A stretch of DNA of 64,000 bases from Vicinamibacteria bacterium (GTDB lineage: Bacteria > Acidobacteriota > Vicinamibacteria > Marinacidobacterales > Marinacidobacteraceae): the NCBI GenBank assembly GCA_963422395.1, contig OY729431.1, positions 2,488,887 to 2,552,886 of the forward strand, read 5' to 3'. The notes under the pieces are model-generated. The model made no database searches. It had not been told where the DNA came from and worked only from the letters and a program-made list of their open reading frames with translations. Position 1 is the stretch's first letter, and every line of letters begins with the position of its first letter. Shown in pieces: positions 14,255-46,800 of the stretch. The translations under genes were made by a program, and so were the position numbers.

Positions 14255-14300
14255 AGAATTCTAGCAGCCTGTGGAAAAAGAGGCGCGAACCCCGAGATCG
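14255..14300. repeat. Solo terminal-repeat remnant of the CTAGCAGCCTGTGGA IS/MITE family.
   Basis: ctagcagcctgtggaaaaagaggcgcgaaccccgagatcgg matches the MITE/IS terminal sequence ctagcagtctgtggatgaagtggcgcgagccccaaggtcgg at about 34 of 41 positions. No partner end was found nearby. Confidence 0.4.
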
Positions 14301-14424
14301 GACCCGTTCTCCCGATGGGAGCCGCCGCGCGGTACCCGGCGGTTTTCCGGGGCGGCCGCTGCCAGCGAGACCGCTCCCACGAGCCGCTTCCGGAGGCGAA
14401 GCGGCGTGCTTCTACCGCGGACCG

Positions 14425-19260: not shown

Positions 19261-19296
19261 TGCGGCGCAGCGGGAGAAAGTGTGAAAGGGGGCCTA

Positions 19297-20160
19297 GCAG
19301 CCCGTGGAAAAACTACCCTAATCGGTGAGGATCAGCGGCCCCGGAGGGGGTGCCGTGATCGGCGCAGTACGGCGTGCGGGCGCGGTCTGCGCGGGAAAAC
19401 CGCCCGACAGGGCGCTATCCAGGCCCAGGCGGGCGGTTCCCGGCTCCGGTAGGCGAAAATGAGAGCGAAAAGCGCGCCGCCGAACGCCGCCGCGCGCCCC
19501 TGCAGTCGTCGCGGCTTGCCGATTCCGCACCGGTGGCGCATCAGCAGCCCGAGGTCGAAGCCCGCTGCCTGGATCAACAGCCGCTTCCCGATGTTCCCCC
19601 GTCCGCGCAAATACAGCCGCCGCATCCCCCCGGTCTCGTAACCGTGCGCAAACGAGCGCTCCACCAACTCGCCCCGCCGGCGCAGCAGGCGCTTCCCGTG
19701 CTCACCACGAACGCGCCGCCGATTCGCAACCACCGCCCGGCGCTCCTCCTCCTTCCCCCGCCAGCTCCAAAGGCCTCGCTTCGGCTCCGATACATACGAA
19801 CGCACCCCCTCCCGCCGCAGACGCAACCGCGTCGCGTTGCTGTGATACTCCTTGTCGCACACCAGCTCTCGCGGACCAGCCGGTTCCCCGACCGCCGACG
19901 CCAGCGCCCCGCTCTCCCGGTCCAACCGCATCGAATCCGGACTCTTCCAGAATCCGGTTCAGCCGCTCGTAGAACGGATCCCCCGCGCTTCGAGGAAGAC
20001 TCGCCGTCGAAGTCCAGGATGTCCGGCGCTGCTCAACCCGACGCAATCCCATAGCCATACACACATACGGCCAAACTGACCCCGCTCGGTCGAGAGCTCC
20101 TGGTTCGCCGGGCGCCTCCCCGATCTTGGGGCTCGCGCCACTTCATCCACAGGCTGCCAG
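19297..20160. mobile_element. Internally deleted IS element (IS5/IS1182-superfamily-like) with terminal inverted repeats CTAGCAGCCCGTGGAAAAA / CTGGCAGCCTGTGGATGAA.
   Basis: The inverted termini lie at 19297 and 20160. Only the C-terminal half of a transposase remains. The right end is about 85% identical to the MITE at 23334..23530, and the left end is about 90% identical to the fragment at 25452..25659. Confidence 0.6.
19332..19931 (-). pseudogene. Transposase C-terminal fragment (DDE transposase, IS5/IS1182-like).
   Basis: ...GKRLLRRRGELVERSFAHGYETGGMRRLYLRGRGNIGKRLLIQAAGFDLGLLMR is the conserved C-terminal region of IS5-superfamily transposases. The N-terminal catalytic half is missing. 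Confidence 0.6.
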
Positions 20161-21561
20161 GAGGCCGGCAGCGAGGAAGGCCGCGGCGGCGGCGAATCCT
20201 CCCAGCAGCGCGTAAGGCAGCTGGGTATTCACATGGTCCACCAGGTCGGAGCCCGAGGCCATCGAAGCGATGATCGTGGTATCGGAGATGGGCGAACAGT
20301 GGTCACCGAAGATGCCGCCGGAGAGCACCGCGCCGGTGACCAGCGAAATGTCGAGCCCGAGTGTCGAAACCGCCGGGATCGCCAGCGGCAGCATGATAGC
20401 GAAGGTGCCCCAGGAGGTCCCCGTCGAGAAGGCCGTCGCCGCGCTCACCGCGAAGAGGACCGCCGGCAGGAGCCAGGCGGGCATCGCCGCTCCCGCGAGT
20501 TCCGCGAGATAGACCCCGGCGCCGAGGTCCCGCGCCACCCCGGAGATCGCGAAGGCGAGCAGCAGCACCGTGACCACCGGCACCATTCCGGAAGCTCCCT
20601 GCACCACCAGGTCCACGCTCTCGGAAAGCCGCAGCACCCGCTGGAAGAGCCCGAGCAGGGCGGCGGCCGCGACGGCGGCGAGAACCGCCCAGAGCACGGA
20701 AACGCCCCCGTCCCCGGCGAGCAGGTCCCCTTCCCCGGTGATCCAGAGCCCGAGGAAGATCATCGCGAGCAGGATCGCCAGCGGAACGACCAGGTTTCGC
20801 GCCCGATGGGGAACGCCAGGTCCGGGGGGCAGTGCGAGCACTTCGGTGGAAACCAGCGGGCGGGCGCCTTTCCGGAGGACCTGGCCGGTCTCCCGCGCCC
20901 GCCGCTGGGCGCGCGCCATCGGGCCGAAGTCCCGCCCCGAGAGGCCGAAGACGAAGGCCAGCGCGAGCGCGGCGAGTGCGTAGAAATTGAACGGGATGCT
21001 GCTCACCAGCACTGAAACGCCGCGTTCGACTCCGAGCGTCCCCAGGACGCCGATCACGAGCGCTCCCCAGCCGTTCATCGGGATCAGGATGCAAACCGGC
21101 GCCGAGGTGGAGTCGGTGAGATAGGCCAGCTTCTCCCGCGAGAGGCGGAAGCGGTCGAACAGGGGCCGCGACACCGTGCCGCTGACCAGGCAGGTGATGC
21201 TCGATTCGACGAAGATGCCCAGTCCGAGCAGCAGGGCGAGCGCCTGGGCGCCCCGCGGCCCGCTGACCAGCCGGCGCGAGGTGACCCAATGGACGAAGCC
21301 GGTGATCCCGCCGGTGCGTCCGACGAGCGCCAGCACTGCACCGACCAGGGTGCTGAAAAGCAGGATGGACGGATTTTCGGAAAATGCGGTGGTGATCCGG
21401 GTCACGGTGGCGGCCAGCGCCGAGAAGGGATTCCCGCCAACGAGGAGCAGCTCGCCGAACACCACCCCGGCCAGCAGCGCCAGCACCGCCTGCCTCGTTG
21501 TCAGGGCGACGAGAATCGCGAGGATCGGGGGAAGGATGCTGAGGAAGCCGAGGTCGTCCAC
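20143..21561 (-). CDS. Na+/H+ antiporter NhaC-family membrane transporter.
   Basis: 472 aa, polytopic, with NhaC-like repeated hairpin regions. Its last six codons (LLAACG*) lie inside the IS terminal repeat. Confidence 0.8.
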   Translation of the reverse strand: MDDLGFLSILPPILAILVALTTRQAVLALLAGVVFGELLLVGGNPFSALAATVTRITTAFSENPSILLFSTLVGAVLALVGRTGGITGFVHWVTSRRLVSGPRGAQALALLLGLGIFVESSITCLVSGTVSRPLFDRFRLSREKLAYLTDSTSAPVCILIPMNGWGALVIGVLGTLGVERGVSVLVSSIPFNFYALAALALAFVFGLSGRDFGPMARAQRRARETGQVLRKGARPLVSTEVLALPPGPGVPHRARNLVVPLAILLAMIFLGLWITGEGDLLAGDGGVSVLWAVLAAVAAAALLGLFQRVLRLSESVDLVVQGASGMVPVVTVLLLAFAISGVARDLGAGVYLAELAGAAMPAWLLPAVLFAVSAATAFSTGTSWGTFAIMLPLAIPAVSTLGLDISLVTGAVLSGGIFGDHCSPISDTTIIASMASGSDLVDHVNTQLPYALLGGFAAAAAFLAAGLLAACG

Positions 21562-21808
21562 GAGTGGGGAACTCCTTTTCGAGTCTGGTTGGCGGAGTCA
21601 GCCTCTCGTTCGGGTACGGCTGAGAGAGGAATCCGCGCTACGGCCCGCACCGAGCGGCCGAGCGTCGGCGGGCCGCCTGCCCACCTTCACGGAGGCGGGG
21701 CGTTGTCCGCGGGCGGCAATCGTTGCATGGCGGCGACGGTACACTCTCCCGCGGATCGGAACCGCCTCCTTCGGGCGGCGCTTCCGGACGATTCGGCGAC
21801 GGAGATCC

Positions 21809-23302
21809 TTGGAAGAACGAAACAAGACGCTACGGCCGGGGAGGGACCGGGGGGCTTCCGACACCGAGCCTGTCCGGCGGTCCGATCGGCAGGCAGGTAG
21901 GCAGCCCGCCGGTGAAGCGAGATCGCCGGAGTCGCGCCGGGACTCGAAACGGCAGGCGAGCCGGGAACGCGCCGGAGGACGAGGACCACACCCCACCGGA
22001 CCGTCTCCGGCTGAGATCGACGGGGTACGCATCGTTCGGGATGCGGCCGGGCTCGAGACGCTCATCGGCGAGGTGCGTGCTCAGGGGGAGTTCGCCCTCG
22101 ACACCGAGTTCATCCCGGAGAATCGCCTCTTCCCTGAACTCGGGCTGGTCCAGATCGCTTCGCCAGGGGTGGAAGCGGTCGTGGACCCACTCGAAATCGA
22201 GGATCTGGGTCCGCTCTTCGCGCTGGTCGCAGATCCCGCGATCCAGAAAGTCGTCCATTCGGGCAAGCACGACTTCGACATCTTCTACGCGCTGGCTTCG
22301 GTCGTGCCGCAGAATGTCTTCGACACCCAGATCGCCGCCGCGGTGATCGGCCACGGCAAGAAGGTGCAGGTTGCGCTCCGGACGCTGGTCGCGGGTTTCG
22401 TGGGCCGCGAGCTCTCGAAACAGGAGCAGATGTCCAACTGGCTGCGGCGTCCGCTGACGCCCCGCCAAGTGGAGTACGCGATCGCCGATGTCCGCTATCT
22501 CCTGCCGCTTCGGGCCAAGCTCATCGCGCGGGCGACCGCGCTCGGCCGACAGGACTGGTTGGACGAGGAGATGAAGCCGCTGACTATCGAGTCCGCTTAC
22601 CAGCTGCCGCCGGTCGAGGAGTGTTACCGCGCCCTCGACGCGCCCGGCCTCACGCCCTCGCAGCGCGGTTCGCTCCGAGAACTGGCCGCTTGGAGAGAAC
22701 GGCGCGCCCGGGCTTCCAACCGACCCCGCGGTTGGATCCTCAAGGACGGAGCGGTCCGCGACCTGGCGCGCCGCCAGCCACGGAACCGGGAACAGCTGTT
22801 GGCACCCTACGAATCCACCGGCGGCCGGCCGCCGAAGGGAGACCCGAGAACCGTCCAGCAGACGCGCGGGGCTCTGCAAAAGAACGCCGAAAAGGTACTC
22901 CGCCTGCTCGAAGCCGGCGCTTCTTGCCCGATTCCCTTCACCGGAACCGGGAAACAGGAGCGCCGCTCCGCTCCCGAGTCGCTGGCCCTGTTGCTGGAGA
23001 CCTGGCTCAAGCTGCGCGCCGCCGAGCACGGAGTCGCCCCCGAACTGCTGGCCACCCAGGAGGAGTTGCGCGCCATCGCTGCCGCCTGGCCGGAAGAGCC
23101 TCCCAGTGCGCGGCCGCTCACCGGATACCGCCGCCGTGTCCTGGGCAACGACTTGCTCCTCATTCTCTCCGGACAGGCGGTCATCCAGGTGGGCGCCAAG
23201 GGGAAACAGCCCGGCGAGCGGCCTCCGATCCGGCTCGCGCGTCTCGGCCGCCTCGGCCGGTTCGTCCTCCGGGACTACGGCAAAGGGAATGGGCCCCGAT
23301 GA
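21809..23302 (+). CDS. rnd: Ribonuclease D (3'-5' exonuclease with HRDC domains).
   Basis: The DEDDy exonuclease motifs FALDTEF, HSGKHDFDIF and YAIADVRYLL are present, with HRDC-like C-terminal repeats. There is no canonical start near the domain. The TTG at 21809 is preceded by GGAG and is proposed, leaving a low-complexity N-terminus. Confidence 0.75.
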   Translation: MEERNKTLRPGRDRGASDTEPVRRSDRQAGRQPAGEARSPESRRDSKRQASRERAGGRGPHPTGPSPAEIDGVRIVRDAAGLETLIGEVRAQGEFALDTEFIPENRLFPELGLVQIASPGVEAVVDPLEIEDLGPLFALVADPAIQKVVHSGKHDFDIFYALASVVPQNVFDTQIAAAVIGHGKKVQVALRTLVAGFVGRELSKQEQMSNWLRRPLTPRQVEYAIADVRYLLPLRAKLIARATALGRQDWLDEEMKPLTIESAYQLPPVEECYRALDAPGLTPSQRGSLRELAAWRERRARASNRPRGWILKDGAVRDLARRQPRNREQLLAPYESTGGRPPKGDPRTVQQTRGALQKNAEKVLRLLEAGASCPIPFTGTGKQERRSAPESLALLLETWLKLRAAEHGVAPELLATQEELRAIAAAWPEEPPSARPLTGYRRRVLGNDLLLILSGQAVIQVGAKGKQPGERPPIRLARLGRLGRFVLRDYGKGNGPR

Positions 23303-23333
23303 ACGAGCTGTCCCCGATCCTCGCACCGGCCCT

Positions 23334-23530
23334 AGCAGCCTGTGGACGAAGTCACACGGCCAAAGGTCGGCGATGCCCAGTCCTCCCGGTGGGGGCCCCG
23401 GCTGAACCGCTTCGCTCGGCGCTGCGATTCCGTCGGAATACACCCGGTATGCCTCCCGAATCGCGCCTTGTCCGCCGGGCGCCTCCCCGACCTTGGGGCT
23501 CGCGCCACTTCATCCACAGACTGCTAGTCC
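23334..23530. mobile_element. MITE (~197 bp) with 21-bp terminal inverted repeats CTAGCAGCCTGTGGACGAAGT / CTAGCAGTCTGTGGATGAAGT.
   Basis: Near-perfect terminal inverted repeats and no coding capacity. The internal sequence matches the right end of the IS remnant at 20090..20160. It sits 31 nt after the rnd stop and 59 nt before the DAACS transporter start. Confidence 0.6.
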
Positions 23531-23588
23531 ATGCTCTCGCCGCTGTCGACCGCAGAACGGCGAAGCCTCTTCCCGCTCCGCTTTCATC

Positions 23589-24893
23589 ATGAAGAACACT
23601 CCCTGGTACCGCAAGCTGTGGGTGCAGATCCTCGCGGGTCTCGCCCTGGGCGTCGTGTACGGCGCCTTCGCCGCCGCCGCCGGCTGGACGGAGTTCACCG
23701 AGGACTTCATCGCGCCGTTCGGGGTGGTTTTCTTCAACGGCCTGCAGCTGATCGCGGTGCCGCTCGTTCTCGCCTCGCTCATCATCGGGGTGTCCTCGCT
23801 CAGCGACATGCGCAAGGTGAGCCGGATCGGCGGAAAGACGATCGCCATCTATGTGGCGACCACCGCGATCTCGGTCACCATCGGCCTCGCCTACGCCAAT
23901 CTGCTGCGGCCCGGCGACCAGGTGCCGGAAGCGCTCCAGCAGGAACTCTCCGAACAGTACCGGGAGGCCGCGGAGGGGCGGGAGGGCCAGGCGGCCCGCC
24001 TGATGGAAGAGCGCGGTCCGCTCAGCTTCCTACTCGACATCGTGCCCTCGAACGCGGTGTCTTCGGCCTCGAACAACCGGAACATGCTCCAGGTTGTGTT
24101 CCTGGCGCTGCTGTTCGGCATCGCGCTGCTCCGGATCCCGCAGGAGAAGGCAGCGCCGCTGATCGGCTTCTTCAAGGGACTCGAAGCGGTCGTCGTCGAA
24201 TTCGTCGGAATCGTGATGCGGATGGCGCCGCTCGGAGTGTTCGCGCTCATCGCCCGCGCCATCACCGGGATGGCCGGAGACGACCCGCAGCAGGTCGCGC
24301 AACTGCTCGGCGCGCTCGGGTTCTACTGCTTCGTGGTGATCGCCGGACTCGCGACCCAGATGCTGGTCGTCTATCCGCTGATCCTGAAGCTCTTCACTCC
24401 GATCCGTTGGCGGCGCTTCTTCCCCGCGGCCGGCCAGGTGCAGCTGGTCGCGTTCTCGACGAGTTCCAGCGGCGCCACTCTCCCGGTGACGATGGATCGC
24501 GCCCAGCGCGATCTGGGAGTGTCCGAGGAGGTTTCGTCGTTCGTCCTTCCGCTCGGAGCCACGATCAACATGGACGGCACCGCGCTCTACCAGGCGGCGG
24601 CGGCGATCTTCATCGCGCAGTCTCTCGGAATGTCCATCGGTCTCGAGGGGCAGCTGGCCATCGTGCTCACCGCGGTGCTCGTCTCGATCGGGACGGCGGC
24701 GGTCCCGGGCGCGGGGATCATCATGCTGGTCATCATCCTGCAGGCCATCGGAGTGCCCACCGAGGGGGTGGCGCTCATCCTCGGAGTGGACCGCATCCTC
24801 GACATGATGCGGACCGCTACGAATGTCACCGGTGACCTGACGGTCGCTTCGGTGGTCGCCGCCTCGGAAAACCAGCTCTCGATCCGGAAGTGA
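23589..24893 (+). CDS. Dicarboxylate/amino acid:cation symporter (DAACS family, GltP/GltT-like).
   Basis: MKNTPWYRKLWVQILAGLALGVVYG. Conserved DAACS hairpin motifs are present. Confidence 0.9.
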   Translation: MKNTPWYRKLWVQILAGLALGVVYGAFAAAAGWTEFTEDFIAPFGVVFFNGLQLIAVPLVLASLIIGVSSLSDMRKVSRIGGKTIAIYVATTAISVTIGLAYANLLRPGDQVPEALQQELSEQYREAAEGREGQAARLMEERGPLSFLLDIVPSNAVSSASNNRNMLQVVFLALLFGIALLRIPQEKAAPLIGFFKGLEAVVVEFVGIVMRMAPLGVFALIARAITGMAGDDPQQVAQLLGALGFYCFVVIAGLATQMLVVYPLILKLFTPIRWRRFFPAAGQVQLVAFSTSSSGATLPVTMDRAQRDLGVSEEVSSFVLPLGATINMDGTALYQAAAAIFIAQSLGMSIGLEGQLAIVLTAVLVSIGTAAVPGAGIIMLVIILQAIGVPTEGVALILGVDRILDMMRTATNVTGDLTVASVVAASENQLSIRK

Positions 24894-24976
24894 GAAGCGG
24901 GAGGGTGGTTTGACCGCTATCGCTCTTCATCTCTCTCGAAGGGCCCCTCTGTCTGGTATAGCCTTGCCCGAGTCGC

Positions 24977-25451
24977 ATGTCCGCTACCAACTTCAACACC
25001 CGCAACGACACTTGGCGCAAACTGATGGCGAACGGCTTGAGTTACCGGGTGCCGAGGTTCCATAAGGGACTACAACTGGGGCCCGGAAGAGTGGGAGGAT
25101 CTCTGGCAGGACATCCTCGCCACCGTCGCACCGGGAGGCGAACCGGCTCATTACTTGGGCTACCTGGTTCTGCGCACCGACGACGAGAAACGCTTCGACG
25201 TCATTGACGGTCAGCAGCGCCTGACCACTCTCAGCATCCTGGTGCTGGCCGGGCTGCGCAGGCTCCGAGACACGATCGAAGCAGAGGAATCAGTCGAGGA
25301 GACGAAAAAGCGCCTCGATGGATTGCGCGGAGCGCACATCGGTTATATGGATCCGGTAACTCTGGTATCGGAAGCGAAACTGAAGCTGAATCGAAACAAC
25401 GACCACTACTTCCAGACCTACCTGATACCTCTGGTTAAACCTTTGCCCCCG
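24977..25451 (+). pseudogene. DUF262 (GmrSD-like, DGQQR ParB-like nuclease N-terminal domain) gene remnant, frameshifted and 3'-truncated.
   Basis: MSATNFNTRNDTWRKLMANGLSYRVPRF, then a 1-nt frameshift near 25061..25066, then DYNWGPEEWEDLWQDILATVAPGGEPAHYLGYLVLRTDDEKRFDVIDGQQRLTTLSILVLAG. These are the DUF262 hallmarks. The ORF ends abruptly where the IS-end fragment begins at about 25452, with the expected downstream domain absent. Confidence 0.6.
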
Positions 25452-25659
25452 CGATGACTGCAGGGGCGCGCGGCGGCGGTCGGCGCCGCGCTTTTCGCCT
25501 ACCGGAGCCGGGAAACGCCCGCCTGGGCCTGGATAGCGCCCTGTCGGGCGGTTTTCCCGCGCAGACCGCGCCCGCACGCCGTACTGCGCCGATCACGGCA
25601 CCCCCTCCGGGGCCGCTGATCCTCACCGATTACAGCAGTTTTTCCACAGGCTGCTAACC
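25452..25659. mobile_element. Truncated IS-end fragment, inverted relative to 19297..19505.
   Basis: About 90% identical to the left ~205 bp of the IS remnant, including the terminus ...cacaggctgctaa at 25659. The homology stops at about 25452. Confidence 0.55.
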
Positions 25660-25687
25660 TGAGGCGGACGTACACTCCGCCCTCGCC

Positions 25688-26563: not shown

Positions 26564-26591
26564 CCGCTCGGGCGCGCCGCGCTCTTTTCCA

Positions 26592-27029
26592 TCACTCGCT
26601 ACCAGACCCTTTCGAGCGCGCAGCACGACCGACCCCGACTCCGACCCCGAGGGGGACGGAAGTCCAGAGTCCTAGTGCCAGAGGGAGACGAAGTCCCTCG
26701 ATCGGAAGGAGGAACGGGCCGTTCAGACGCCCGGTGAGGATCGCCGTGATCAGCCAGGCGCCGGCTCCGAATGTGATTCCGAGCCCGCCACCGAGAACGA
26801 GCCAGTCTCGAAACCTCGACTCGAAGAGAGTCCCCAGCCGAGTTCCGATGTGCACCCAAACCGGGAAGCCGAGCAGTATCCCGAAGGAAACGCCGAAACC
26901 CATCCGCAGCACATCCCACACGGACTCACGCTCTACGGCGACTCCCCACAGAACGAGCCCGATGAAGAAGCCCAACGCCAGGCTCACCCCTGGCCTCACG
27001 ACACTTGGCGCTACTTCGGTTACCGCCAT
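26592..27029 (-). CDS. Hypothetical 4-TM membrane protein, translationally coupled to the upstream Cys-rich protein gene.
   Basis: The start MAVTEV... overlaps the upstream stop (TGATG). It has four hydrophobic helices and Gly-rich turns. Local GC is low. Confidence 0.45.
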   Translation of the reverse strand: MAVTEVAPSVVRPGVSLALGFFIGLVLWGVAVERESVWDVLRMGFGVSFGILLGFPVWVHIGTRLGTLFESRFRDWLVLGGGLGITFGAGAWLITAILTGRLNGPFLLPIEGLRLPLALGLWTSVPLGVGVGVGRAARSKGSGSE

Positions 27030-27322
27030 CAGATCCAACAGGTAGAAAGGCAGTTGCTGAATCGATTCAGACATGCGTTCACTTCTTCGAGGTGTCTGTC
27101 GTAGCACTGTTCCAAGCAATTTTTCGCACCCCAGAACCCGCATTGGCGTGCACATGTCTCAAGGTCATCTTCCGCTGTCCGAAGGCAGTCGGAAAGATTA
27201 CCGCTGCACTCGGCCACACAGTCCTGCGGATTGGGTTGGGCACGACCGACAGCTGGAATTATGAGAAGAAGAAGAAGTCCGACATATGTGAGGGAGAATA
27301 GAAAAATTCGAAAAGTCTTCAT
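27029..27322 (-). CDS. Small secreted cysteine-rich protein (10 Cys, four CX3C motifs).
   Basis: An AGGAGA SD lies 8 nt before the ATG (MKTFRIF...). The signal peptide is MKTFRIFLFSLTYVGLLLLLIIPAVGRAQ. The mature ~69 aa contain CVAEC, CARQC, CLEQC and CLSTC plus two more Cys. Confidence 0.5.
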   Translation of the reverse strand: MKTFRIFLFSLTYVGLLLLLIIPAVGRAQPNPQDCVAECSGNLSDCLRTAEDDLETCARQCGFWGAKNCLEQCYDRHLEEVNACLNRFSNCLSTCWI

Positions 27323-27377
27323 GAGAGTTCTCCTGTTAGGCAGTTTCCGATGATCCATTTGGAAACAGCGGGAATCA

Positions 27378-27786
27378 CTATTCAGTCGAGAGCCGCTGCG
27401 ACAGCATCTCGAATCGTTTCACCTTCGCCTCCGTGAGGCTGGCAAGACGCGCCATCAGCTCAGCCAAATCCTCTTCTTGCATTCCACGCGTGCGAAGCAT
27501 CGACTCGATTTCGCGGAATCTGGTTTCATAGAGGGCTCTGAGGTCGATCTCGGCACTCCTTCTGCTCGGGACGAGGGGAGGACCTGGTCCATCGAAGGCA
27601 ACTGACGCTTCCGTAACCAGCGGCGCGTACGTCCGGGCAGTGGCCTCCGCCTGGCTCTGATCGACAGTCGCAATGGTTGGTGCCACGACCGAAGGGGTCG
27701 AGGTGTTTCCGGTACTGTCGCAACCGGAACCGACCGACAGCGCCGCGAAGATCGCAACGAGAAGGACGAGGGGGTTCTTTCGGAAC
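27378..27786 (-). CDS. Hypothetical lipoprotein with a C-terminal helical domain.
   Basis: Signal and lipobox MFRKNPLVLLVAIFAALSVGSGC. A Ser/Thr/Pro-rich linker is followed by a helical C-terminus. It is the first gene of the low-GC three-gene cassette. Confidence 0.5.
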
Positions 27787-28065
27787 ATGACGAGGGTCTC
27801 CTCTATGGAAAGTGTCAAGCCTTTGCTGATAGTTCGAGAAACCGGCCGAGTCGAGGACAACGGTTGCGAAGAATCACCCATCCTCGTGCGTCCTCGGTTG
27901 GGTCTCTACGAGTACCAACTGGTTTAGCGTGCCCCAATCCAATTTTCAACAGCAGATCCCCCGAAAATATCCTTCAGGCTCGGGATGGACCGGATCGCCG
28001 TATGGATTTGACTTTCGGTCTGGTTGTCGCAAGACTGCAGGTGAGGACCTCGAAGAAGGACGCGA

Positions 28066-29187
28066 GTGGCGGTTTCGGATCTCGAAGATCGGGGTTGCTG
28101 GTTCCGTGGCGCTGCCGGTGAGAATGCGGTCGAAGACGAAGACGAACGGCTCCCCGGAGAGACCGAGGGGCTGCCGGAATCGGGCGACATCATCCCGGAG
28201 CCGCCGGTCCCGGTAGGCGGGGCGGATGACCTGGGCATCGTGGGCCTCTATCTCCGGGACACCCGCCGGTGTGGTCGGCTTACCGGGAAAGATGAACAGC
28301 GGTGCGCCCGCTCCATGCGGAGGAACGCGCGAGGAAATCGAAAAGCCGAGCAGTCGGCCGCAGAGGCGGCCGCGTTCCATGCCAGCCGCCACCGGATGAT
28401 CGAGGGGAGCCTCGGACTCGTCGTTGCGATCGCAAGGGAATACGAACACCTGGGTCTGCCGCTTGAAGACCTCATCCAGGAAGGCAACCTCGGGCTGATC
28501 GCGGCAGTGGACAAGTTCGACCCCGAGCGGAACCTGAGGCTTTCGACCTACGCCGTGACCTGGATCCGAGAAGCGATCTGCCGGGCGCTCTCCCAGAAGT
28601 CCCGGACGATCCGGATTCCGCTCGACAAACTGGCGATTCGCCGCCGAGCGGCTAAAGTGCATGACGAGATAGAACAGCGGTACGGGAACGAGGCGTGCTG
28701 CGGTGGCTCTCGCCGGGCGCATACCCTGGAGGACGACGCCGGGGAACTCGGAGTGGATGCCGAAGTGCTGCGAACGACGATCCGGCTGGTGCCCGACATC
28801 GATCCGCTGGAGGACCGGCCGAGCGGCAGGCCATCCCTCTTGGCGTCGCTGCCAGACCCCCAGTCGCCGAATCCGGCGGACCGGGCTGCGGCTGCGGAGC
28901 AGCAGCAGCGAGTCAGGGACGCGGTTTCCGAACTCCCGCCCCGCCTGCAGTGGATCGTGCGGCGGCGCTATGGGCTTTCCGGCGGAGAAGAAGCCGGCTT
29001 GGCGAAGGTCGGACGCGAAGTGCGACTCTCCGCCGAGCGGGTTCGCCAGTTGCAGCGCCGAGCGCTGCGCCTGCTTCGTGGGATCCACGCTTCTTCTGCC
29101 GCGCGCACGGAACCGATCCGAGGTCGGCCCTCTCGAACCGCTTTGGCCCCTTTCGCCGGAGCGCCGCCCTTCAGATCGCCCGGATGA
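28066..29187 (+). CDS. Sigma-70 family RNA polymerase sigma factor (regions 1.2, 2, 3, 4).
   Basis: Region 2 reads LVVAIAREYEHLGLPLEDLIQEGNLGLIAAVDKFDPERNLRLSTYAVTWIREAI. A region 4 HTH near the C-terminus reads RRRYGL...RVRQLQRRALRLL. The N-terminus is acidic. Confidence 0.8.
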   Translation: MAVSDLEDRGCWFRGAAGENAVEDEDERLPGETEGLPESGDIIPEPPVPVGGADDLGIVGLYLRDTRRCGRLTGKDEQRCARSMRRNARGNRKAEQSAAEAAAFHASRHRMIEGSLGLVVAIAREYEHLGLPLEDLIQEGNLGLIAAVDKFDPERNLRLSTYAVTWIREAICRALSQKSRTIRIPLDKLAIRRRAAKVHDEIEQRYGNEACCGGSRRAHTLEDDAGELGVDAEVLRTTIRLVPDIDPLEDRPSGRPSLLASLPDPQSPNPADRAAAAEQQQRVRDAVSELPPRLQWIVRRRYGLSGGEEAGLAKVGREVRLSAERVRQLQRRALRLLRGIHASSAARTEPIRGRPSRTALAPFAGAPPFRSPG

Positions 29188-38146: not shown

Positions 38147-38447
38147 GTCAGGGTCTCCTCAGGATCTCCGGGAAGCGCACCGACCAGCGAGCACCGCGAA
38201 CCGGAGAGGCCCCGGACGCTATCCGCTCGCGAGCCGAGCCGTCAATGGCCACTCGGGGGCTGCGCCGGGGGAGCTTCGGACAGGCGGTCGCAGGGGAGCG
38301 GACCGAGGCCCCACGGAAAGCTGCTCTTCCCGCCTATAGAAGAGGATGTTGCGCTTGCTTCGCAGGGGCTCGATGGGTGTCCCCGCATGGATGACGATTT
38401 TTGTCCAGGTGATCGAGTATCCTGTCTTGCTTCAGACCCTCTCTGCG

Positions 38448-40700
38448 ATGCCTTCTCGATCTGATCACTATTTCGCGCACAGCGCCCCCTCCGAAAACCC
38501 GTCCTCGTGGCACCGGCTGGACGACCACCTCCGGCACACCGGAGACCGCGCCGCCGGCTTCCTCGAACGGGTCGGGCTCGCCCACTTCGGTCGGGCCGCC
38601 GGGCTCCTCCATGACCTCGGCAAGTACACCGAGAAGTTCCAGCAGAGGCTCCGCGGCGGCCCGCGCGTGAATCATTCGACAGCCGGAGCCAAAATCGCGT
38701 GCGAACGCTATCCAGGCATCATCGGAAAAATGCTGGCATTCGGTGTTGCCGGCCATCACGCGGGACTTGCGAATGGTGTGAACGGCGAGAAAATCACTGC
38801 CCTCGCCGATCGGTTGCGCGAAAACACCCCCGAACTCGACCCGTTATGGAGCCAGGAAATACAACTCCCGCCGCTTGGTCCACCGCAGATCCAGAGCCGC
38901 AGTCGGGAGAACGCCGGATTTTCCGGGTCGTTCCTGATCCGCCTGCTGTTCTCGGCCCTGGTGGACGCAGACTATCTCGATACCGAGGCCTATTACGCAA
39001 GAATCGAGAAAACGAGTCCGAGTCGCGGAGGCCACCCCTCACTCGGAATACTTCGCGACCGCCTCGATGCCCACCTCGAAGGGCTCACCGCGCGGGCCTC
39101 GGCCAGCGAAGTGAACGCGCTCCGCCGCGAAGTGCTGCACCACGCCAGAAAACGGGCAGTGGACACGCCCGGCCTCTTCACTCTCACGGTACCTACCGGC
39201 GGCGGCAAGACCCTCACTTCACTGTCGTTCGCCCTCCACCACGCCGTGCACCACGGGCTCGACCGGATCCTCTATGTCATCCCGTACATGAACATCATCG
39301 AACAGACGGCCGCTGTTTTCCGCGATGTCCTGCAAGACGACGAATCCGAGGGGCCGCACTTCGTGATCGAGCATCACAGCACCTTCGACGAGCAGCGAGT
39401 CGAGAAACGTTCCGGTAAAGAGAAACTCCGTCTCGCGATGGAGAATTGGGACGCTCCCATCGTGGTCACCACCGCCGTCCAGTTCTTCGAGAGCCTTTTC
39501 TCGAACCGCCCGTCCCGCTGCCGAAAACTGCACAACATCGCTGGCAGCGTCGTCGTCCTAGATGAGGCGCAGACTCTTCCCCTCGAATTCCTGCGCCCCT
39601 GCGTCGCCGCGATGGATGAGCTGGCGCGGAATTGGCGCGCCACCGTCGTCCTCTGCAGTGCCACGCAGCCGGCGCTGCGCGAGGAGAGCGGCTTCTGTGG
39701 CGGATTGCGCGAAGTGCGTGAACTCGCACCCCAACCGACTCGGCTCCAGCGAAGCCTAAAGCGAACTCGTATCCACCAAAAAGGCCCGATGGAGGACTCC
39801 GAGATCACCGAACGATTGCGTGGAACGCCGCAGGCACTTTGCATCGTCAACACGCGGGCCCACGCACGGGCTCTGTACGAAGCAATCGAAGATCAGGATG
39901 GGGCCACGCACCTCACCACTTCGATGTGCGCCCGTCACCGTCGGGAGATTCTGGAAGAAGTCCGCTCCCGGCTGACGATCGGTGAACCGATTCGGTTGAT
40001 CGCCACCTCACTGGTCGAAGCCGGGGTGGACCTGGATTTTCCGGTCGTTTGGCGTGAGGAAGCAGGCCTCGAATCCATCATCCAGGCGGCAGGACGATGC
40101 AATCGGGAAGGGAAAGCGCCGTCCGGAGATGTGATCGTGTTCCGTTCGCAAGCCGGTGGTCGAGGATTGCCCGAGATACGGAAGGCCGCAGACGCTGCGC
40201 GCCAGGTCCTCCGGAAGCACCAGGATCCCATGTCTCTGCCCGCCATCCAGGAGTATTTCCAGACGCGCTACTGGATCGAAGGAGATAATGCCTTGGACAC
40301 CAAGGGGATCCTTCCCATGCTCCGTGAACGGAAAAGGAGTCTCGACTTTCCTTTCGAAACGATCTCTCGTGCGTTCTGCCTGATCGAAACACCCATGGCC
40401 CCGGTGATCGTCCCCTACAGAGGCCGAGAGGGGAAAGACAGAACCGCAGACCGCCTGATCGCCGCTCTCGAGCATGAAGAGCGCCCCGGCTGGCTGGCGC
40501 GTAGTCTGCAGCCGTACACGGTCCCCGTTCCGCTGCTCGGCCGGAAATCTCTACTGGACTCCAGGGCCGCCCGGATCATCCGGGAGGCCGATTTCGACGA
40601 ACAGTTCGTCGTCCTCGACAACCGAGACATCTATCGGGCGGACATCGGCCTCACCTGGGACGATCCAAGCTTTCACAGCGTCGAGGGGCTGATCTGTTGA
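38448..40700 (+). CDS. cas3: CRISPR-associated helicase/nuclease Cas3 (HD domain plus SF2 helicase).
   Basis: The HD motifs HYFAHS and LLHDLGKY are at the N-terminus. Helicase motifs VPTGGGKT and VLDEAQ follow. The start is assigned to ATG 38448 (MPSRSDHYFAHS). The track start at 38346 adds non-conserved residues. Confidence 0.95.
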   Translation: MPSRSDHYFAHSAPSENPSSWHRLDDHLRHTGDRAAGFLERVGLAHFGRAAGLLHDLGKYTEKFQQRLRGGPRVNHSTAGAKIACERYPGIIGKMLAFGVAGHHAGLANGVNGEKITALADRLRENTPELDPLWSQEIQLPPLGPPQIQSRSRENAGFSGSFLIRLLFSALVDADYLDTEAYYARIEKTSPSRGGHPSLGILRDRLDAHLEGLTARASASEVNALRREVLHHARKRAVDTPGLFTLTVPTGGGKTLTSLSFALHHAVHHGLDRILYVIPYMNIIEQTAAVFRDVLQDDESEGPHFVIEHHSTFDEQRVEKRSGKEKLRLAMENWDAPIVVTTAVQFFESLFSNRPSRCRKLHNIAGSVVVLDEAQTLPLEFLRPCVAAMDELARNWRATVVLCSATQPALREESGFCGGLREVRELAPQPTRLQRSLKRTRIHQKGPMEDSEITERLRGTPQALCIVNTRAHARALYEAIEDQDGATHLTTSMCARHRREILEEVRSRLTIGEPIRLIATSLVEAGVDLDFPVVWREEAGLESIIQAAGRCNREGKAPSGDVIVFRSQAGGRGLPEIRKAADAARQVLRKHQDPMSLPAIQEYFQTRYWIEGDNALDTKGILPMLRERKRSLDFPFETISRAFCLIETPMAPVIVPYRGREGKDRTADRLIAALEHEERPGWLARSLQPYTVPVPLLGRKSLLDSRAARIIREADFDEQFVVLDNRDIYRADIGLTWDDPSFHSVEGLIC

Positions 40701-40948
40701 ACCGGCAGGGATCCGTTCCAACGCAGCGAGGTGGAGTTGCGGCTTCCCCGGAGACCTCCTGGAATTCGGGTTCCTCACCATGCGAACGAAAAGAGCCATC
40801 CTTCCCAGCCATGACGGGGGCCACCCGCTCCCAACGAGTCGCAGCACGGGGACTGAAACGGATGGCGAGTACCGATGAGGACTGTCGTCCCCGGCTCGCC
40901 CGGGGACTCGGATCGACGGAGAGTACAGAAGTTCGGGGGAGGAAGACG

Positions 40949-41150
40949 ATGCCCGACTCCACTCATGAATGGCCGGAAAGTCCTTCGGACTCTGGAGCGC
41001 CAAGGATTCGAATGCGTGCGCCGGCGGGGAAGCCACCGCATCCTTCGAACCTCTGCCAGAGGCAGCGAACGGGTGACAGTCGCCGGGAAATAAGGCGACG
41101 AGCTACGGAAGGGAACCCCGGTGGCGGTCTCCTTCGACCTGCTACCACCA
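40949..41150 (+). pseudogene. hicA-like mRNA-interferase toxin remnant, with an in-frame stop and a probable frameshift.
   Basis: MNGRKVLRTLERQGFECVRRRGSHRILRTSARGSERVTVAGK*GDELRKGTPVAVSFDLL aligns with the HicA family pattern (LeklGfelvrqkGSH...vtvP.H.gkdl..GTlrsIlkqagL). A TAA interrupts it at 41091..41093. A strong SD (GGGGGAGGAAG) serves an ATG at 40949 that is out of frame with the HicA frame at 40965. Confidence 0.4.
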
Positions 41151-41244
41151 AGAGAGCTTTCCACTGCCGCCGCCTCGACTGCAGCGTACCGGGAACGACC
41201 CCGGAGCGGCTGATGCGGGGCGGACTTCTCGCCGGGGCGGCCTG

Positions 41245-41916
41245 ATGTCGTACGGAGCAAGACTCCATGTGTGGGGCGATTACGCATGTTTCACTCGCCC
41301 CGAGATGAAGGCCGAGCGCGTCTCCTACGACGTCATGACACCGTCGGCAGCGCGTGGAATTCTGGAAGCGATCCATTGGAAGCCGGCGATCCGGTGGATC
41401 GTGGATCGGATCCAGGTGTTGAAACGGATCCGGTTCGAAACGATTCGAAGAAACGAACTCGGAAGCAAGATTCCGGCAGGAAACATCAGCGTCGCGATGC
41501 AGCGCGGCGACACCGGAGGTCTCGCCGTCTCGATCGAAAGCGACCGGCAGCAGCGCGCCGCCACCGTACTGCGCGATGTCGCTTATCTCATCGAAGCGCA
41601 CTTCATCCTCACACCCGTTGCAAACCCAGACGATACTCCGGCGAAACACGCCGCGATGTTCCACCGGCGCGCCGCTCGAGGGCAGTGCTTCCACCGACCG
41701 TATCTGGGGACCCGCGAGTTCCCGGCCCACTTCGCCCCGGTCCCGGATCCGCCGCCATCATCCTCCCTACCGACCGATCAGTGTGATCGTGATCTAGGCT
41801 GGATGCTGCACGACCTCGACTACGCGAATGCCGCGTCGCCCAGATTCTTCCGCGCAACGCTCCGGAATGGCGTGGTGCATGTCCCGCCGCTTGATTCAGA
41901 GGAGGTCAAGGGATGA
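41245..41916 (+). CDS. cas5c: Cas5c (Cas5d), type I-C.
   Basis: MSYGARLHVWGDYACFTRPEMKAERVSYDVMTPSAARGILEAIHWKP is the canonical Cas5d N-terminus. The stop overlaps the cas8c start (ATGA). Confidence 0.95.
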   Translation: MSYGARLHVWGDYACFTRPEMKAERVSYDVMTPSAARGILEAIHWKPAIRWIVDRIQVLKRIRFETIRRNELGSKIPAGNISVAMQRGDTGGLAVSIESDRQQRAATVLRDVAYLIEAHFILTPVANPDDTPAKHAAMFHRRAARGQCFHRPYLGTREFPAHFAPVPDPPPSSSLPTDQCDRDLGWMLHDLDYANAASPRFFRATLRNGVVHVPPLDSEEVKG

Positions 41917-43682
41917 GCATCCTCCAAGCACTCATCCAGCGCTATGAGCGACAGGCAGCACGCGACCAGGCGCCGAAGTACGGCTTTTCGGAGCAGAAAA
42001 TTTCCTATGCAATAGTAATCGATCGGAGCGGTCAGGCCATCGACACGATCGATCTGAGGGATACGAGCGGGAAGAAGCCGCGGCCCAGCAAACGCGAAGT
42101 GCCGAATCCCGTAGTCCGTACCGCCAAAATCCAACCCCAATTCCTGTGGGACAAGACTGCCTATGCCCTTGGAGTCAAGAAAGCCCAAACAGGTTCCGCA
42201 GTCCCCGCCGAACGGGGAGAGTACGATGCTTTCGTTTCCTGCCATCGGAAACTCCTCTCCTGTTCCGAAGATGATGGGCTCCAGGCATTTCTCGCCTTCC
42301 TCGATAACTGGCGGCCCGATCGCTACAGTGACCTCCGGAACAGCGACGACATGTTGGACACCAATGTCGTTTTTCGTTTCGAAGCCGATTCCAAATCGTT
42401 CTTGCACGACCGCCCGGCGGCGCGGGAAATCTGGGTGCGACTTCTGACAGGAAACGAGACCGAGCGACATCTGTGCCTGGTGACCGGCGAGCAACTCTCG
42501 ATAGCCCGGGTGCACTCCAAGATCAAGGGTGTCCGGGGCGCCCAGACTTCCGGGGCATCGATCGTCTCCTTCAACCAGAAGGCATTCAATTCTTTCGGAA
42601 AGGAACAGGGCGGGAACGCGCCGATCTCGGATCGCGCTGCTTTCGCATACACCACCTCACTGAACTCCCTTCTCGCCCGAGGCAGCCGCAATCGAATCCA
42701 GATCGGCGATACGACGACTGTGTTCTGGGCAGACTCCGGAGACGATCCAGAGAGTGCCGAAGCCGCCGATAGCCTGTTCTCTGCGCTCATGGGCGCGCCG
42801 CCGACCGACGAAGAAGAGGCAGCAGTGGTCCGGGACAAAGTCGAAAAATTTCAAGCCGGGCGTCCGGTCGAATCTGTCGAGCCGGGCGTTCAGGAGGACA
42901 CGCGCTTCTTCGTTCTTGGTCTCGCACCCAATGCGGCGCGCCTTTCCGTCCGATTCTGGCATGAAGACACGATCGGCCGCATGGGAGAACGGCTTCGAGA
43001 GCACTGGGGCGATCTTCATATCGAACCGGTCCCTTGGCACACGCCCCCGGATGCTTGGCGGCTCCTGCGCGAGACCGCCATTCAGGGCAAGTCGGAGAAA
43101 ATACCGCCAGTGCTCAGCGGCACGCTCATGAGCGCGATCCTCCGGGGCAGCAGATACCCTCGATCGTTGTTGGCCAATGTATTGCTGCGGATGCGCTCCG
43201 ACGGCAACATCAATGGGTTGCGTGCTGCGATCTGCAAGGCATGTCTCGCCCGCGACCATCGCTTCGGTCTCGAAGAGGAGGCACTCCCCGTGAGTCTAAA
43301 CCCCGACGAAAAAAACCCGGCCTATCGCCTCGGCAGACTGTTCGCCATCTATGAAGGCGTTCAGCAGGCCGCGATGGGACGACGGGTGAACGTGACGATC
43401 AAGGATCAGTTCTACGGATCCGCGTCCGCCACCCCGGCCGCGGTCTTTCCGGTAATCAACCGGAAGGCCGCCCACCACCTCGGATCCCTTCGCAAGGACA
43501 AAGGGGGGTTGGCCGTCTGGTACGAACGACACCTGGACGCGGTATTCGATGGCTTCGAGACGGCGTTCCCGCGCAGCCTCGGGATCGAGGAACAGGGCCG
43601 CTTCACCATCGGCTATTACCACCAGCGGGCAAGCCTCAAAGGGAAGCCCGCCAACGACAGCGTCGAGACGCCGGAGGAATGA
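41913..43682 (+). CDS. cas8c: Cas8c (Csd1) large subunit, type I-C.
   Basis: [14 protein letters not shown]... 589 aa, positioned between cas5c and cas7c, with Csd1-like conserved blocks. Confidence 0.95.
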
Positions 43683-44623
43683 ACATCATGTCAGCAATCC
43701 GTAACCGATACGATTTCGTGTATCTGTTCGACATCTCCAACGGAAACCCCAACGGAGATCCCGATGCCGGAAACCTGCCCCGGCTCGATCCAGAAACCAA
43801 CCAGGGTCTCGTCACCGATGTGTGCCTCAAGCGAAAGATTCGAAATTTCGTCACGATGACGAAGGGGGGCGAACCACCGTATGGAATCTATATCGCCGAG
43901 CGTGCCGTGCTGGAGCGGCTGCAGCAGCGTGCCTGGGATGCGATCGTCCCGGACGCCAGCGACGAAGCTCGGAAAAAGTTGCCGAAAGACGAGGCAAAGG
44001 CGCGAAAACTGACCCGATGGATGTGCGACAATTTCTTCGATGTACGGACATTCGGCGCGGTGATGTCCACGAAGGGCGCCAACTGCGGCCAGGTCCGGGG
44101 GCCAGTCCAGTTCTCGTTCGGCCGATCCGTTGAACCGATCGTCCCGCTGGAGGTTTCGATCACCAGGATGGCGGCGACCACACAGAAGGACGCCGACGAG
44201 AAGGGCGATGTTCGCACGATGGGGCGCAAGTACATCGTGCCGTACGGTCTGTATCGCGCCCACGGCTTCGTCTCGGCATGCCTGGCCGGAAACGGTGCCG
44301 GGGGAACCGGCTTCTCGCAAGAAGACCTGGATCTGGTGTGGACCGCCCTCGAACAGATGTTCGATCACGACCGCTCCGCGGCAAGGGGCGAGATGACAGC
44401 CCGCCGTCTCATCATATTCCGCCACGAGAGCACGCTCGGCAACACCGCCGCCCACCGACTCTTCGACCGCGTCCGGGTTTCGCGGATCCACGAGGAGCAG
44501 GAAGCCTCCCTCGGTGCACCTGCTTCACGGAGCCTGCCCCCGGCACGGTCGTACTCCGATTACTCCGTTGTCGTGGATGCCGAAAACCTTCCTGAAGGGA
44601 TCACGATCCTGGATCGGATCTGA
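43679..44623 (+). CDS. cas7c: Cas7c (Csd2) backbone subunit, type I-C.
   Basis: [51 protein letters not shown] is the Csd2 signature. Confidence 0.95.
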
Positions 44624-45273: not shown

Positions 45274-45281
45274 GCACCACA

Positions 45282-46322: not shown

Positions 46323-46330
46323 TACAAATC

Positions 46331-46621: not shown

Positions 46622-46800
46622 TCGGTGCGAACCCGTAGCGGTAGCCACTGACCAAAGCTTTCGCACAATTCGAAAATCATTATATTTCAACGAATTAGAC
46701 GAGCTATTCCACCCTGGTAATAGCTAGACTCCAACGGCTGGAGCAGGTTCGCACAAAGAGGCGGAATCTGCCAAGAGCCACCAGCAGATATATTCCTGCG
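46622..46800 (+). promoter_or_regulatory. CRISPR leader.
   Basis: A 179-bp AT-rich stretch (aaaatcattatatttcaacgaattagacgagctattccaccctggtaatagctagact) lies between cas2 and the first repeat. The array's degenerate repeats are at the distal end, which supports this polarity. Confidence 0.6.

What the first reader, a model, noticed from the sequence alone, without database searches (positions are those of the whole stretch)
24977..25659. Frameshifted, IS-truncated DUF262 (GmrSD-like) defence gene remnant
The N-terminal DUF262/ParB-like nuclease domain hallmarks (RVPRF-QRDYNW and VIDGQQRLTTL) are readable, but only across a 1-nt frameshift near 25061..25066. The gene ends after about 160 codons where the inverted IS-end fragment begins. 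The DUF1524/HNH half expected in GmrSD or type IV restriction-like proteins is absent. This is a decayed defence gene in the same islet as the MITE and next to the CRISPR-Cas locus.
Basis: seen in the sequence. Interest (0 to 1): 0.55.

Follow-up and report, generated by a model that had tools for sequence, protein, structure and literature searches.

The report
Dead GmrSD-like (HEC-06) defence gene stub
This is the broken first quarter of a known single-gene anti-phage nuclease (GmrSD-like, HEC-06 type), disabled by one extra base and by loss of everything after codon 158 at a junction with an insertion-sequence fragment, so it is an ordinary pseudogene.

Summary
Window 24977-25457 encodes residues 1-158 of a ~573-aa DUF262+DUF1524 (GmrSD-like) protein. 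It is readable only across a +1 frame change at 25061-25064 (CATA where homologues have one Gln codon). The best family match is PADLOC HEC-06 (4.4e-63, profile positions 1-158 of 569), a GmrSD-like single-gene system with published anti-phage activity. The DGQQR motif survives (25206-25220). The second half of the DUF262 domain, the linker and the whole DUF1524 nuclease domain are missing, and no trace of them lies elsewhere in the 64 kb.

At 25449 the gene runs into a 208-bp piece of an IS1182/IS5-like element. This piece is a 94-97% inverted copy of 19295-19514. The interior of the IS, not its tip, abuts the gene, so the truncation is a deletion with one end inside the gene and one inside the IS.

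New point: the two IS-derived repeats bound a ~6-kb segment (NhaC, RNase D, SDF symporter) that is inverted relative to the closest relative found. That relative shows no DUF262 sequence at this position.

CRISPR-Cas I-C lies 12.7 kb away, not adjacent. The verdict is an ordinary decayed, horizontally acquired defence gene of low novelty.

The parts
24977..25060 (+). Codons 1-28 of the HEC-06/GmrSD-like gene (MSATNFNT...YRVPRF), in the original reading frame
   Evidence: Translation. tblastn HSP for residues 1-35 of L003, with 69% identity. The start matches the homologues' MSATNFNT start.
25061..25064 (+). Frameshift site: four bases (CATA) where homologues have the single codon for Gln29. 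This is a +1 insertion, most simply T25063.
   Evidence: The two tblastn HSPs change from frame +2 to frame +3 between residues 29 and 30. The sequence was read directly.
25065..25454 (+). Codons 30-159 in the shifted frame. They include the DGQQR NTP-hydrolysis motif at 25206-25220 and end in the middle of the DUF262 domain.
   Evidence: tblastn gives 65% identity over 130 residues. Pfam GmrSD_N covers profile positions 5-101 of 199. PADLOC HEC-06 covers positions 1-158 of 569.
25449..25457 (+). Deletion junction. CCGCGA (25449-25454) is shared by the gene (Pro-Arg, aligned with LPQR of homologues) and the IS (Pro-Arg of GKPRRLQG). It is followed by TGA, where the IS copy has CGA.
   Evidence: The DNA alignment of 19280-19560 with the reverse complement of 25400-25675 loses similarity upstream of 25449. 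The tblastn alignment runs to 25454.
25449..25656 (+). IS fragment B: the terminal 208 bp of an IS1182/IS5-like element (last ~58 transposase codons plus the inverted-repeat tip ...TCCACAGGCTGCTA). Its interior faces the gene remnant and its tip lies 32 bp upstream of the phhA start.
   Evidence: Inverted repeat with 19295-19514 at 94-97%. The matching part of copy A aligns with the C-termini of database transposases. The tip motif was found at 25643-25654.
19296..20158 (-). IS copy A: an 863-bp, internally deleted IS1182/IS5-like element with both terminal inverted repeats. It retains only about the last 190 codons of the transposase. Its 19296-19514 end is the partner repeat of fragment B.
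   Evidence: PF13751 at 1.4e-3 and NF033551 IS1182 at 1.5e-5, both below their cut-offs. 2832 transposase homologues carrying PF01609/PF13751. Homologues align only from their residue ~117-177 onward.
19515..25448 (.). Segment between the two IS-derived inverted repeats: NhaC-type antiporter (-), RNase D-like (+), MITE, SDF symporter (+) and the gene remnant (+). The shared genes within it (window 20099-24869) are inverted relative to relative L082.
   Evidence: blastn and tblastn of L082 against the window show that 20099-24869 matches in reverse orientation, while phhA and everything downstream match in forward orientation.
23333..23527 (.). A 195-bp MITE with the same terminal repeats as the IS (CTAGCAGCCTGTGGA.../...TCCACAGACTGCTAG). 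Its right 65 nt are 91% identical to the other end of IS copy A.
   Evidence: (D5).

Best explanation
This is a non-functional remnant of a horizontally acquired, single-gene GmrSD-like defence nuclease of the HEC-06 type.

Intact relatives are ~573 aa. They carry an N-terminal DUF262/ParB-like NTPase domain with a DGQQR motif, a linker, and a C-terminal DUF1524 His-Me-finger nuclease with an EH motif. In the published HEC-06 representative, both motifs are required for phage resistance.

Here only codons 1-158 remain, and they carry two inactivating lesions:
1. One extra base at 25061-25064 ends the original frame after 76 codons.
2. A deletion fused codon ~159 to the interior of a neighbouring IS1182/IS5-like element. 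It removed the rest of the DUF262 domain, the linker, the nuclease domain and most of the IS. Up to 6 bp of microhomology (CCGCGA) lies at the joint, and a TGA follows at once.

The surviving 208-bp IS end and the matching end of an 863-bp IS relic at 19296-20158 form inverted repeats. Recombination between these copies, or their longer ancestors, inverted the ~6-kb NhaC/RNase D/SDF segment that carries the gene stub.

Shown: the homology, the frame change, the absence of the C-terminal part from the window, the IS identity and orientation, and the inversion relative to one relative.

Inferred: the order of events, the deletion mechanism, and loss of function.
For: Family and extent:
- Pfam GmrSD_N at 2.7e-24, covering only profile positions 5-101 of 199.
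- PADLOC HEC-06 PDLC04154 at 4.4e-63 on positions 1-158 of 569. The full-length homologue L003 scores 5.2e-239 on the same model over positions 1-567.
- L003 has GmrSD_N at residues 17-244 and GmrSD_C at residues 426-562.
- 75 of 80 homologous loci from many phyla carry an uninterrupted ~573-aa reading frame.

Frameshift and truncation:
- Two tblastn HSPs lie in different frames, and no C-terminal match exists anywhere in the 64 kb.

Decay:
- The remnant has 6 substitutions at 55 columns invariant in the 80 homologues, and 9 at 79 columns that are at least 95% conserved. Leave-one-out values for the homologues are median 0 and maximum 4.

Foreign origin:
- GC is 57.6% against 67.1% for the window.
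- Relative L082 has no matching sequence beyond its SDF gene.

IS fragment and orientation.

Inversion:
- L082 has SDF(-), RNase D(-), NhaC(+), phhA(+). The window has NhaC(-), RNase D(+), SDF(+), remnant, phhA(+).
- The breakpoints fall at the two IS-derived repeats.
- An IS-related element already sits at the NhaC stop codon in L082 (L082 4867-4919 aligns with window 20142-20099).

Function of the intact family:
- Mutations of HEC-06 at Q79/R80 and at E471/H472 abolish defence (bioRxiv 10.1101/2024.01.29.577857).
Against: - No reads are available, so the single-base insertion cannot be told apart from an assembly error. It lies next to short runs (AA, GGG).
- Only 64 kb of a ~2.9-Mb genome was searched, so a relocated C-terminal half elsewhere is not excluded.
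- The direction of the inversion rests on one relative whose contig ends 468 bp beyond SDF.
- The 80 homologues used for the conservation count were chosen as best hits to one protein. They are therefore biased towards mutual similarity, and the excess divergence of the remnant could partly be lineage divergence rather than decay.
- A 100-aa internal ORF (TTG 25155 to 25457) is called as a protein in the public record (P0040). Expression of a fragment is therefore not excluded.
Confidence: 0.9

Rival explanations
1. The frameshift is a sequencing or assembly error, and the gene is 'only' truncated. It would then encode a 158-aa N-terminal DUF262 fragment in one frame.
For: The extra base sits beside short homopolymers (CCATAAGGG). 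Removing one G of GGG would also restore the frame, giving F-H-K-D-Y. The public record appears to be the same assembly (P0040 and P0121 lie on a 2,908,270-bp contig), so it offers no independent confirmation.
Against: The most parsimonious repair is the removal of a non-homopolymer T, turning CATAAGG into CAAAGG. This restores the invariant F-Q-R-D-Y without any substitution. The rest of the remnant shows independent signs of relaxed constraint. Even if the frame were intact, the product would lack half of the DUF262 domain and the whole nuclease domain.
Confidence: 0.1
2. The gene was split by a rearrangement rather than shortened by a deletion. Under this reading, the C-terminal 415 codons survive elsewhere in the genome next to the missing part of the IS.
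For: The locus has demonstrably undergone an IS-associated inversion. Only 64 kb of ~2.9 Mb could be searched.
Against: There is no match to residues 160-573 on either strand of the window (best E 0.59). The only other IS copy in the window with both ends (19296-20158) has no DUF262 sequence at either flank. Homologous recombination between IS copies cannot create a joint between the IS interior and the gene interior, so an illegitimate event is needed in any case, and a simple deletion is the shortest route.
Confidence: 0.08
3. The fragment is a functional short protein, for example a DUF262-only NTPase, a regulator, or a dominant-negative subunit. It would be made from the internal TTG at 25155 or by ribosomal frameshifting.
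For: The DGQQR motif is retained (25206-25220). A 100-aa ORF is called in the public record (P0040). Many short DUF262 proteins appear in the database list.
Against: The break falls at Pfam profile position ~101-106 of 199, in the middle of the domain and not at a domain boundary. The short database hits are an artefact of that tool listing only hits under about 1.75 times the query length. Several of them are visibly frameshifted or truncated at contig ends themselves, while 75 of 80 genomic loci are full length. Invariant residues are substituted. No promoter-like or terminator-like consensus was found, and no RNA family matched.
Confidence: 0.02

Closest known systems
HEC-06 (Hma-embedded candidate 06), a GmrSD-like single-protein anti-phage system (Payne et al., bioRxiv 10.1101/2024.01.29.577857; PADLOC models PDLC04154-04157)
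   Same: The best-scoring model for the remnant is PDLC04154 (211.8 bits over positions 1-158). The remnant has the same N-terminus and the same RFQRDY and DGQQR motifs. Full-length homologues of the remnant match the model end to end at 792.6 bits.
   Different: Only 158 of ~570 residues remain and the frame is broken at codon 29. The EH nuclease motif (E471/H472 in the paper) and the second half of the DUF262 domain are gone. The gene is not embedded in an Hma system here. It sits between a symporter gene and phhA.
GmrSD / Eco94GmrSD type IV restriction enzymes (Pfam PF03235 GmrSD_N + PF07510 GmrSD_C)
   Same: The N-terminal domain family is the same (PF03235, 2.7e-24). The ancestral architecture was DUF262-linker-DUF1524, as seen in homologue L003.
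   Different: The relationship is distant. The PADLOC type IV model mREase_IV scores only 4.1e-7 on the remnant. Target specificity for glucosyl-hmC DNA is not known for the HEC-06 clade. The nuclease half is absent here.
BrxU (BREX-associated) and SspE (phosphorothioate-sensing) GmrSD-like proteins
   Same: They share the DUF262 + DUF1524 design with the DGQQR NTPase motif. SspE models give weak hits (1.2e-11 for the remnant).
   Different: They belong to different clades. According to the paper read, HEC-06 shares 23.7% identity with BrxU over 11% alignment coverage. SspE proteins are ~750-790 aa. No ssp or BREX genes were seen near the remnant.
IS1182/IS5-like insertion sequences and their MITE derivatives
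   Same: The truncating fragment and copy A carry terminal inverted repeats (GCAGCCTGTGGA, 7 sites in the window against 0.34 expected). They also carry a transposase C-terminus that aligns with PF01609/PF13751 transposases.
   Different: Neither copy is intact: one is 863 bp and internally deleted, the other is a 208-bp end only. Family assignment is weak, since NF033551 scores 24 bits against a cut-off of 270.

Membership tests
GmrSD-like / HEC-06 defence nucleases | N-terminal DUF262 (GmrSD_N, PF03235) domain with the DGQQR NTP-hydrolysis motif | tested here: inconclusive
   The domain is recognised at 2.7e-24, but only profile positions 5-101 of 199 are present. DGQQR is present at 25206-25220 but lies downstream of a frameshift. 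The result shows ancestry, not an intact domain.
GmrSD-like / HEC-06 defence nucleases | C-terminal DUF1524 (GmrSD_C, PF07510) His-Me-finger nuclease domain with the (D/E)H motif | tested here: not met
   There is no Pfam hit, and tblastn of residues 160-573 of two full-length homologues finds nothing in the 64-kb window (best E 0.59). Homologue L003 has the domain at residues 426-562.
GmrSD-like / HEC-06 defence nucleases | Single uninterrupted reading frame of about 570 aa | tested here: not met
   The homology is split over two frames and ends at codon ~158. 75 of 80 related loci have the full frame.
GmrSD-like / HEC-06 defence nucleases | Best match to the HEC-06 profile rather than to the SspE, BrxU or type IV models | tested here: met
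   PDLC04154 HEC-06 scores 211.8 bits. SspE scores at most 41.8 bits and mREase_IV scores 26.9 bits.
GmrSD-like / HEC-06 defence nucleases | Protection against phage | not testable with these tools
   Activity is published for an intact HEC-06 representative only. None is expected from this remnant.
IS1182/IS5-like insertion sequence (the truncating element) | DDE transposase with PF01609 core and PF13751 C-terminal region | tested here: inconclusive
   Only the C-terminal region remains. PF13751 scores 19.4 bits (cut-off 25.1) and NF033551 scores 24.1 bits (cut-off 270). Strong homologues carry PF01609 + PF13751. The DDE core is absent from both copies.
IS1182/IS5-like insertion sequence (the truncating element) | Terminal inverted repeats at both ends | tested here: met
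   Copy A has them at 19296-19314 and 20138-20158, and the MITE has them at 23333 and 23527. Fragment B keeps one end only.

The most novel reading that the evidence does not exclude
The 158-codon stub, or its 100-aa internal ORF that keeps DGQQR, might be retained and expressed as a stand-alone ParB-like NTPase fragment with a regulatory or dominant-negative role. Alternatively, the ~6-kb segment between the 210-bp inverted IS repeats might still flip in the population. It would then act as an invertible element that swaps which genes face the outward-reading IS ends next to the NhaC-type antiporter gene and phhA.
Probability: 0.03. Interest if true: 0.45.

Novelty: already known. Interest (0 to 1): 0.12.

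Why it matters
It matters mainly for annotation. The public gene call here is a 100-aa hypothetical protein, whereas the locus should be labelled a HEC-06/GmrSD-like pseudogene and not counted as a defence system. The locus also gives a tidy small example of a familiar pattern. A horizontally acquired defence gene is lost by illegitimate deletion into a neighbouring IS, and leftover IS ends then drive a local inversion of housekeeping genes. Nothing here changes what is known about GmrSD-like systems.

Tried and rejected
- Exact-protein look-ups of P0040 and of the window's phhA product to locate the source contig returned nothing. The cluster look-up gave no names or accessions, so the organism was not identified beyond a 2,908,270-bp contig.
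- All hits in the first protein search were 280 aa or shorter. This briefly suggested a natural short DUF262-only family. I rejected the idea for three reasons: the same tool capped hits at ~1.75 times the query length for a second query, several short hits are themselves frameshifted, and genomic loci show a 573-aa frame.
- I considered that the IS had inserted into the gene. I rejected this because the IS interior, not its terminus, abuts the gene.
- I considered that homologous recombination between IS copies created the truncation. I rejected this because such recombination cannot produce a joint between the IS interior and the gene interior. It does, however, explain the inversion.
- The promoter/terminator scan and the Rfam scan of the region found nothing.
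- NCBIfam has no model that matches the DUF262 family.
- More distant phhA loci (79 of 80) carried none of the neighbouring genes. They could not serve as an outgroup for the direction of the inversion.

Full report
**Observation.** From ATG 24977 the + strand reads MSATNFNTRNDTWRKLMANGLSYRVPRF. It then degenerates and stops at 25205-25207. The next frame reads RDYNWGPEEWEDLWQDILATVAPGGEPAHYLGYLVLRTDDEKRFDVIDGQQRLTTL...NRNNDHYFQTYLIPLVKPLPPR and stops at TGA 25455-25457. With one base removed, the 159-aa product matches Pfam PF03235 (GmrSD_N) at 2.7e-24. Only profile positions 5-101 of 199 are covered. A search of 5.8 billion proteins returned 482 relatives, the best at 5e-71 and 69% identity.

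**What the intact gene looks like.** A scan of one genome per species found at least 564 related loci. The best 80 come from Gammaproteobacteria, Acidobacteria, Planctomycetota, Verrucomicrobiota, Cyanobacteria and other groups. In L003 and L024 the gene is a 573-aa frame starting MSATNF. It carries GmrSD_N at residues 17-244 and GmrSD_C (DUF1524) at residues 426-562. A single full-length tblastn HSP was obtained in 75 of the 80 loci. Four of the remaining five matches are cut by an end of the held sequence; L073 (residues 1-490) was not examined.

Against PADLOC, the full-length protein matches HEC-06 model PDLC04154 end to end (5.2e-239). The window's remnant matches positions 1-158 of 569 of the same model (4.4e-63). 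SspE and type IV models score far lower. HEC-06 is one of two GmrSD-like candidates found embedded in Hma systems. That study, as read, reports anti-phage activity that is lost on mutating the DGQQR motif (Q79A, R80A) or the nuclease motif (E471A, H472A). It also reports only 23.7% identity with BrxU over 11% alignment coverage (bioRxiv 10.1101/2024.01.29.577857). The nearest solved structure by sequence is 9jfl_B, a DUF262 domain-containing protein (1.8e-21).

**The two lesions.**
1. tblastn with the 573-aa homologues gives two HSPs. Residues 1-35 lie at 24977-25081 in one frame and residues 30-159 lie at 25065-25454 in the next. The change falls in TTC CAT A AGG GAC TAC, where every homologue reads F-Q-R-D-Y. 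Removing T25063 restores CAA AGG, which reads Gln-Arg, without any substitution. The site is not itself a homopolymer, but it lies next to AA and GGG. A sequencing error therefore cannot be excluded without reads.
2. Homology stops at residue ~158-159 of 573. No other part of the window, on either strand, matches residues 160-573 (best E 0.59). The break lies in the middle of the DUF262 domain, not at a domain boundary.

**Signs of decay and foreign origin.** The remnant carries 6 substitutions at 55 columns that are invariant in 80 homologues, and 9 at 79 columns that are at least 95% conserved. Leave-one-out values for the homologues are median 0 and maximum 4. Its median identity to the homologues is 64%, against 78% among them. 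These homologues were selected for similarity to one query, so part of the contrast may be lineage divergence. GC is 57.6% in the remnant against 67.1% for the window and 66-69% for the flanking genes.

**The downstream fragment.** Positions 25449-25656 are an inverted copy of 19295-19514 (165 nt at 97% and 50 nt at 94%, with a 12-nt indel). The partner belongs to an 863-bp element at 19296-20158. That element has terminal inverted repeats (CTAGCAGCCCGTGGAAAAA... and ...TTCATCCACAGGCTGCCAG) and a transposase relic on the minus strand.

The relic has 2832 homologues carrying PF01609/PF13751. It aligns with P0122 residues 128-326 at 56% identity, up to the C-terminal tail that is also present in the 208-bp fragment. 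Direct model hits are weak: PF13751 at 1.4e-3, and NF033551 (IS1182) at 1.5e-5, far below its cut-off. The N-terminal and DDE-core parts are missing. The end motif GCAGCCTGTGGA occurs 7 times in the window against 0.34 expected. Two of these sites are the ends of a 195-bp MITE at 23333-23527.

**How the truncation arose (inference).** In the 208-bp fragment the IS terminus (25656) points away from the gene, towards phhA (ATG 25688). The IS interior is fused to the gene at 25449-25454. An IS inserting into the gene would put its terminus against the gene. Recombination between IS copies would leave whole elements. The joint therefore needs an illegitimate deletion from codon ~159 into an IS that lay downstream. 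Such a deletion would have removed at least 1.25 kb of the gene, any intervening DNA and most of the IS. The hexamer CCGCGA is shared by both partners at the joint, so up to 6 bp of microhomology is possible. The TGA that follows corresponds to CGA in the other IS copy.

**A local inversion (new).** A scan of metagenome contigs with the phhA product found two relatives at 76-78% identity. L082 (MKWU01005148.1) carries SDF (-), RNase D-like (-), NhaC-type antiporter (+) and phhA (+). Everything downstream of phhA is colinear with the window. In the window the order is IS copy A, NhaC (-), RNase D-like (+), MITE, SDF (+), remnant, IS fragment, phhA (+).

Window 20099-24869 is therefore inverted relative to L082, and the two breakpoints coincide with the two IS-derived inverted repeats. 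Undoing the inversion places one 863-bp IS between NhaC and phhA. At exactly that position L082 has an IS-related MITE-like element abutting the NhaC stop codon (L082 4867-4919 aligns with window 20142-20099). L082 shows no DUF262 sequence in the 468 bp beyond SDF, where its contig ends. The direction of the inversion rests on this single relative.

**Context.** The neighbours are a redoxin, an Na+/H+ antiporter, an RNase D-like exonuclease, a dicarboxylate symporter and phenylalanine hydroxylase. These are housekeeping genes, not a defence island. The type I-C CRISPR-Cas locus comprises cas3 at 38346-40700, csd1/cas8c, cas7, cas4 and cas1 up to 46322, and an array of more than 30 repeats at ~46.8-48.8 kb. 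It lies 12.7 kb downstream. No promoter, terminator or Rfam match was found around the remnant.

**Verdict.** The finding is correct and ordinary. It is a pseudogene of a known GmrSD-like (HEC-06) defence nuclease, killed by a frameshift and by a deletion into an IS. It sits at one breakpoint of a small IS-mediated inversion. It fails the membership tests for a functional family member, since it has no nuclease domain and no intact frame, while its ancestry is beyond doubt. Novelty is minimal. Its value lies in correct annotation and as a small worked example of defence-gene loss.

Noticed in passing
window 19296-25656 compared with L082 (MKWU01005148.1): The ~6-kb segment carrying NhaC, RNase D-like and SDF genes is inverted relative to the closest relative found. 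The breakpoints fall at two 210-bp IS-derived inverted repeats that are 94-97% identical.
   Followed up: yes
window 20143-20158; L082 4860-5035: The last four codons and the stop codon of the NhaC-type antiporter gene are supplied by the IS terminus (...LL|AACG*). In the relative, a different MITE-like element (ends GTGTGGTGTCCCGCAAATGC / GGATTTGCGGGACACCGCAC) begins at the same stop codon. Its interior resembles the window's MITE (window 23397-23503, 84% identity).
   Followed up: partly
window 26564-29177: A 2.6-kb stretch is absent from both relatives (L081, L082), where phhA is followed directly by the homologue of window 29178 onward. It has low GC (50-60% at 26.8-28.2 kb). It holds three small minus-strand ORFs (187, 109 and 167 aa, apparently membrane or secreted proteins) and a sigma-70-family gene at 28066-29187.
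   Followed up: partly
window 14261-14301 and 52672-52712: Two further solo copies of the IS-end motif (GCAGCCTGTGGA-like, followed by GGCGCGANCCCCGAGA) lie in intergenic positions. They may be decayed MITEs of the same family.
   Followed up: no
window 38346-48800: A complete-looking type I-C CRISPR-Cas locus: cas3, csd1/cas8c, cas7, cas4 and cas1, plus an array of more than 30 repeats of GTCGCCCCCCGCACGGGGGGCGCGGATTGAAAC. Two spacers are near-duplicates (48052-48077 and 48255-48280, 88% over the 60-nt repeat-plus-spacer unit).
   Followed up: partly
window 21900-22002 (-): ARAGORN calls a 103-nt tRNA-Gly(CCC) in the region of the long ORF with the RNase D-like domains. Its length and position suggest a false positive.
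   Followed up: no
(tool behaviour): the search for homologous proteins listed only hits shorter than about 1.75 times the query (at most 280 aa for a 159-aa query, and at most 344 aa for a 199-aa query). A truncated query therefore preferentially retrieves truncated or frameshifted relatives, which can wrongly suggest a short family.
   Followed up: partly
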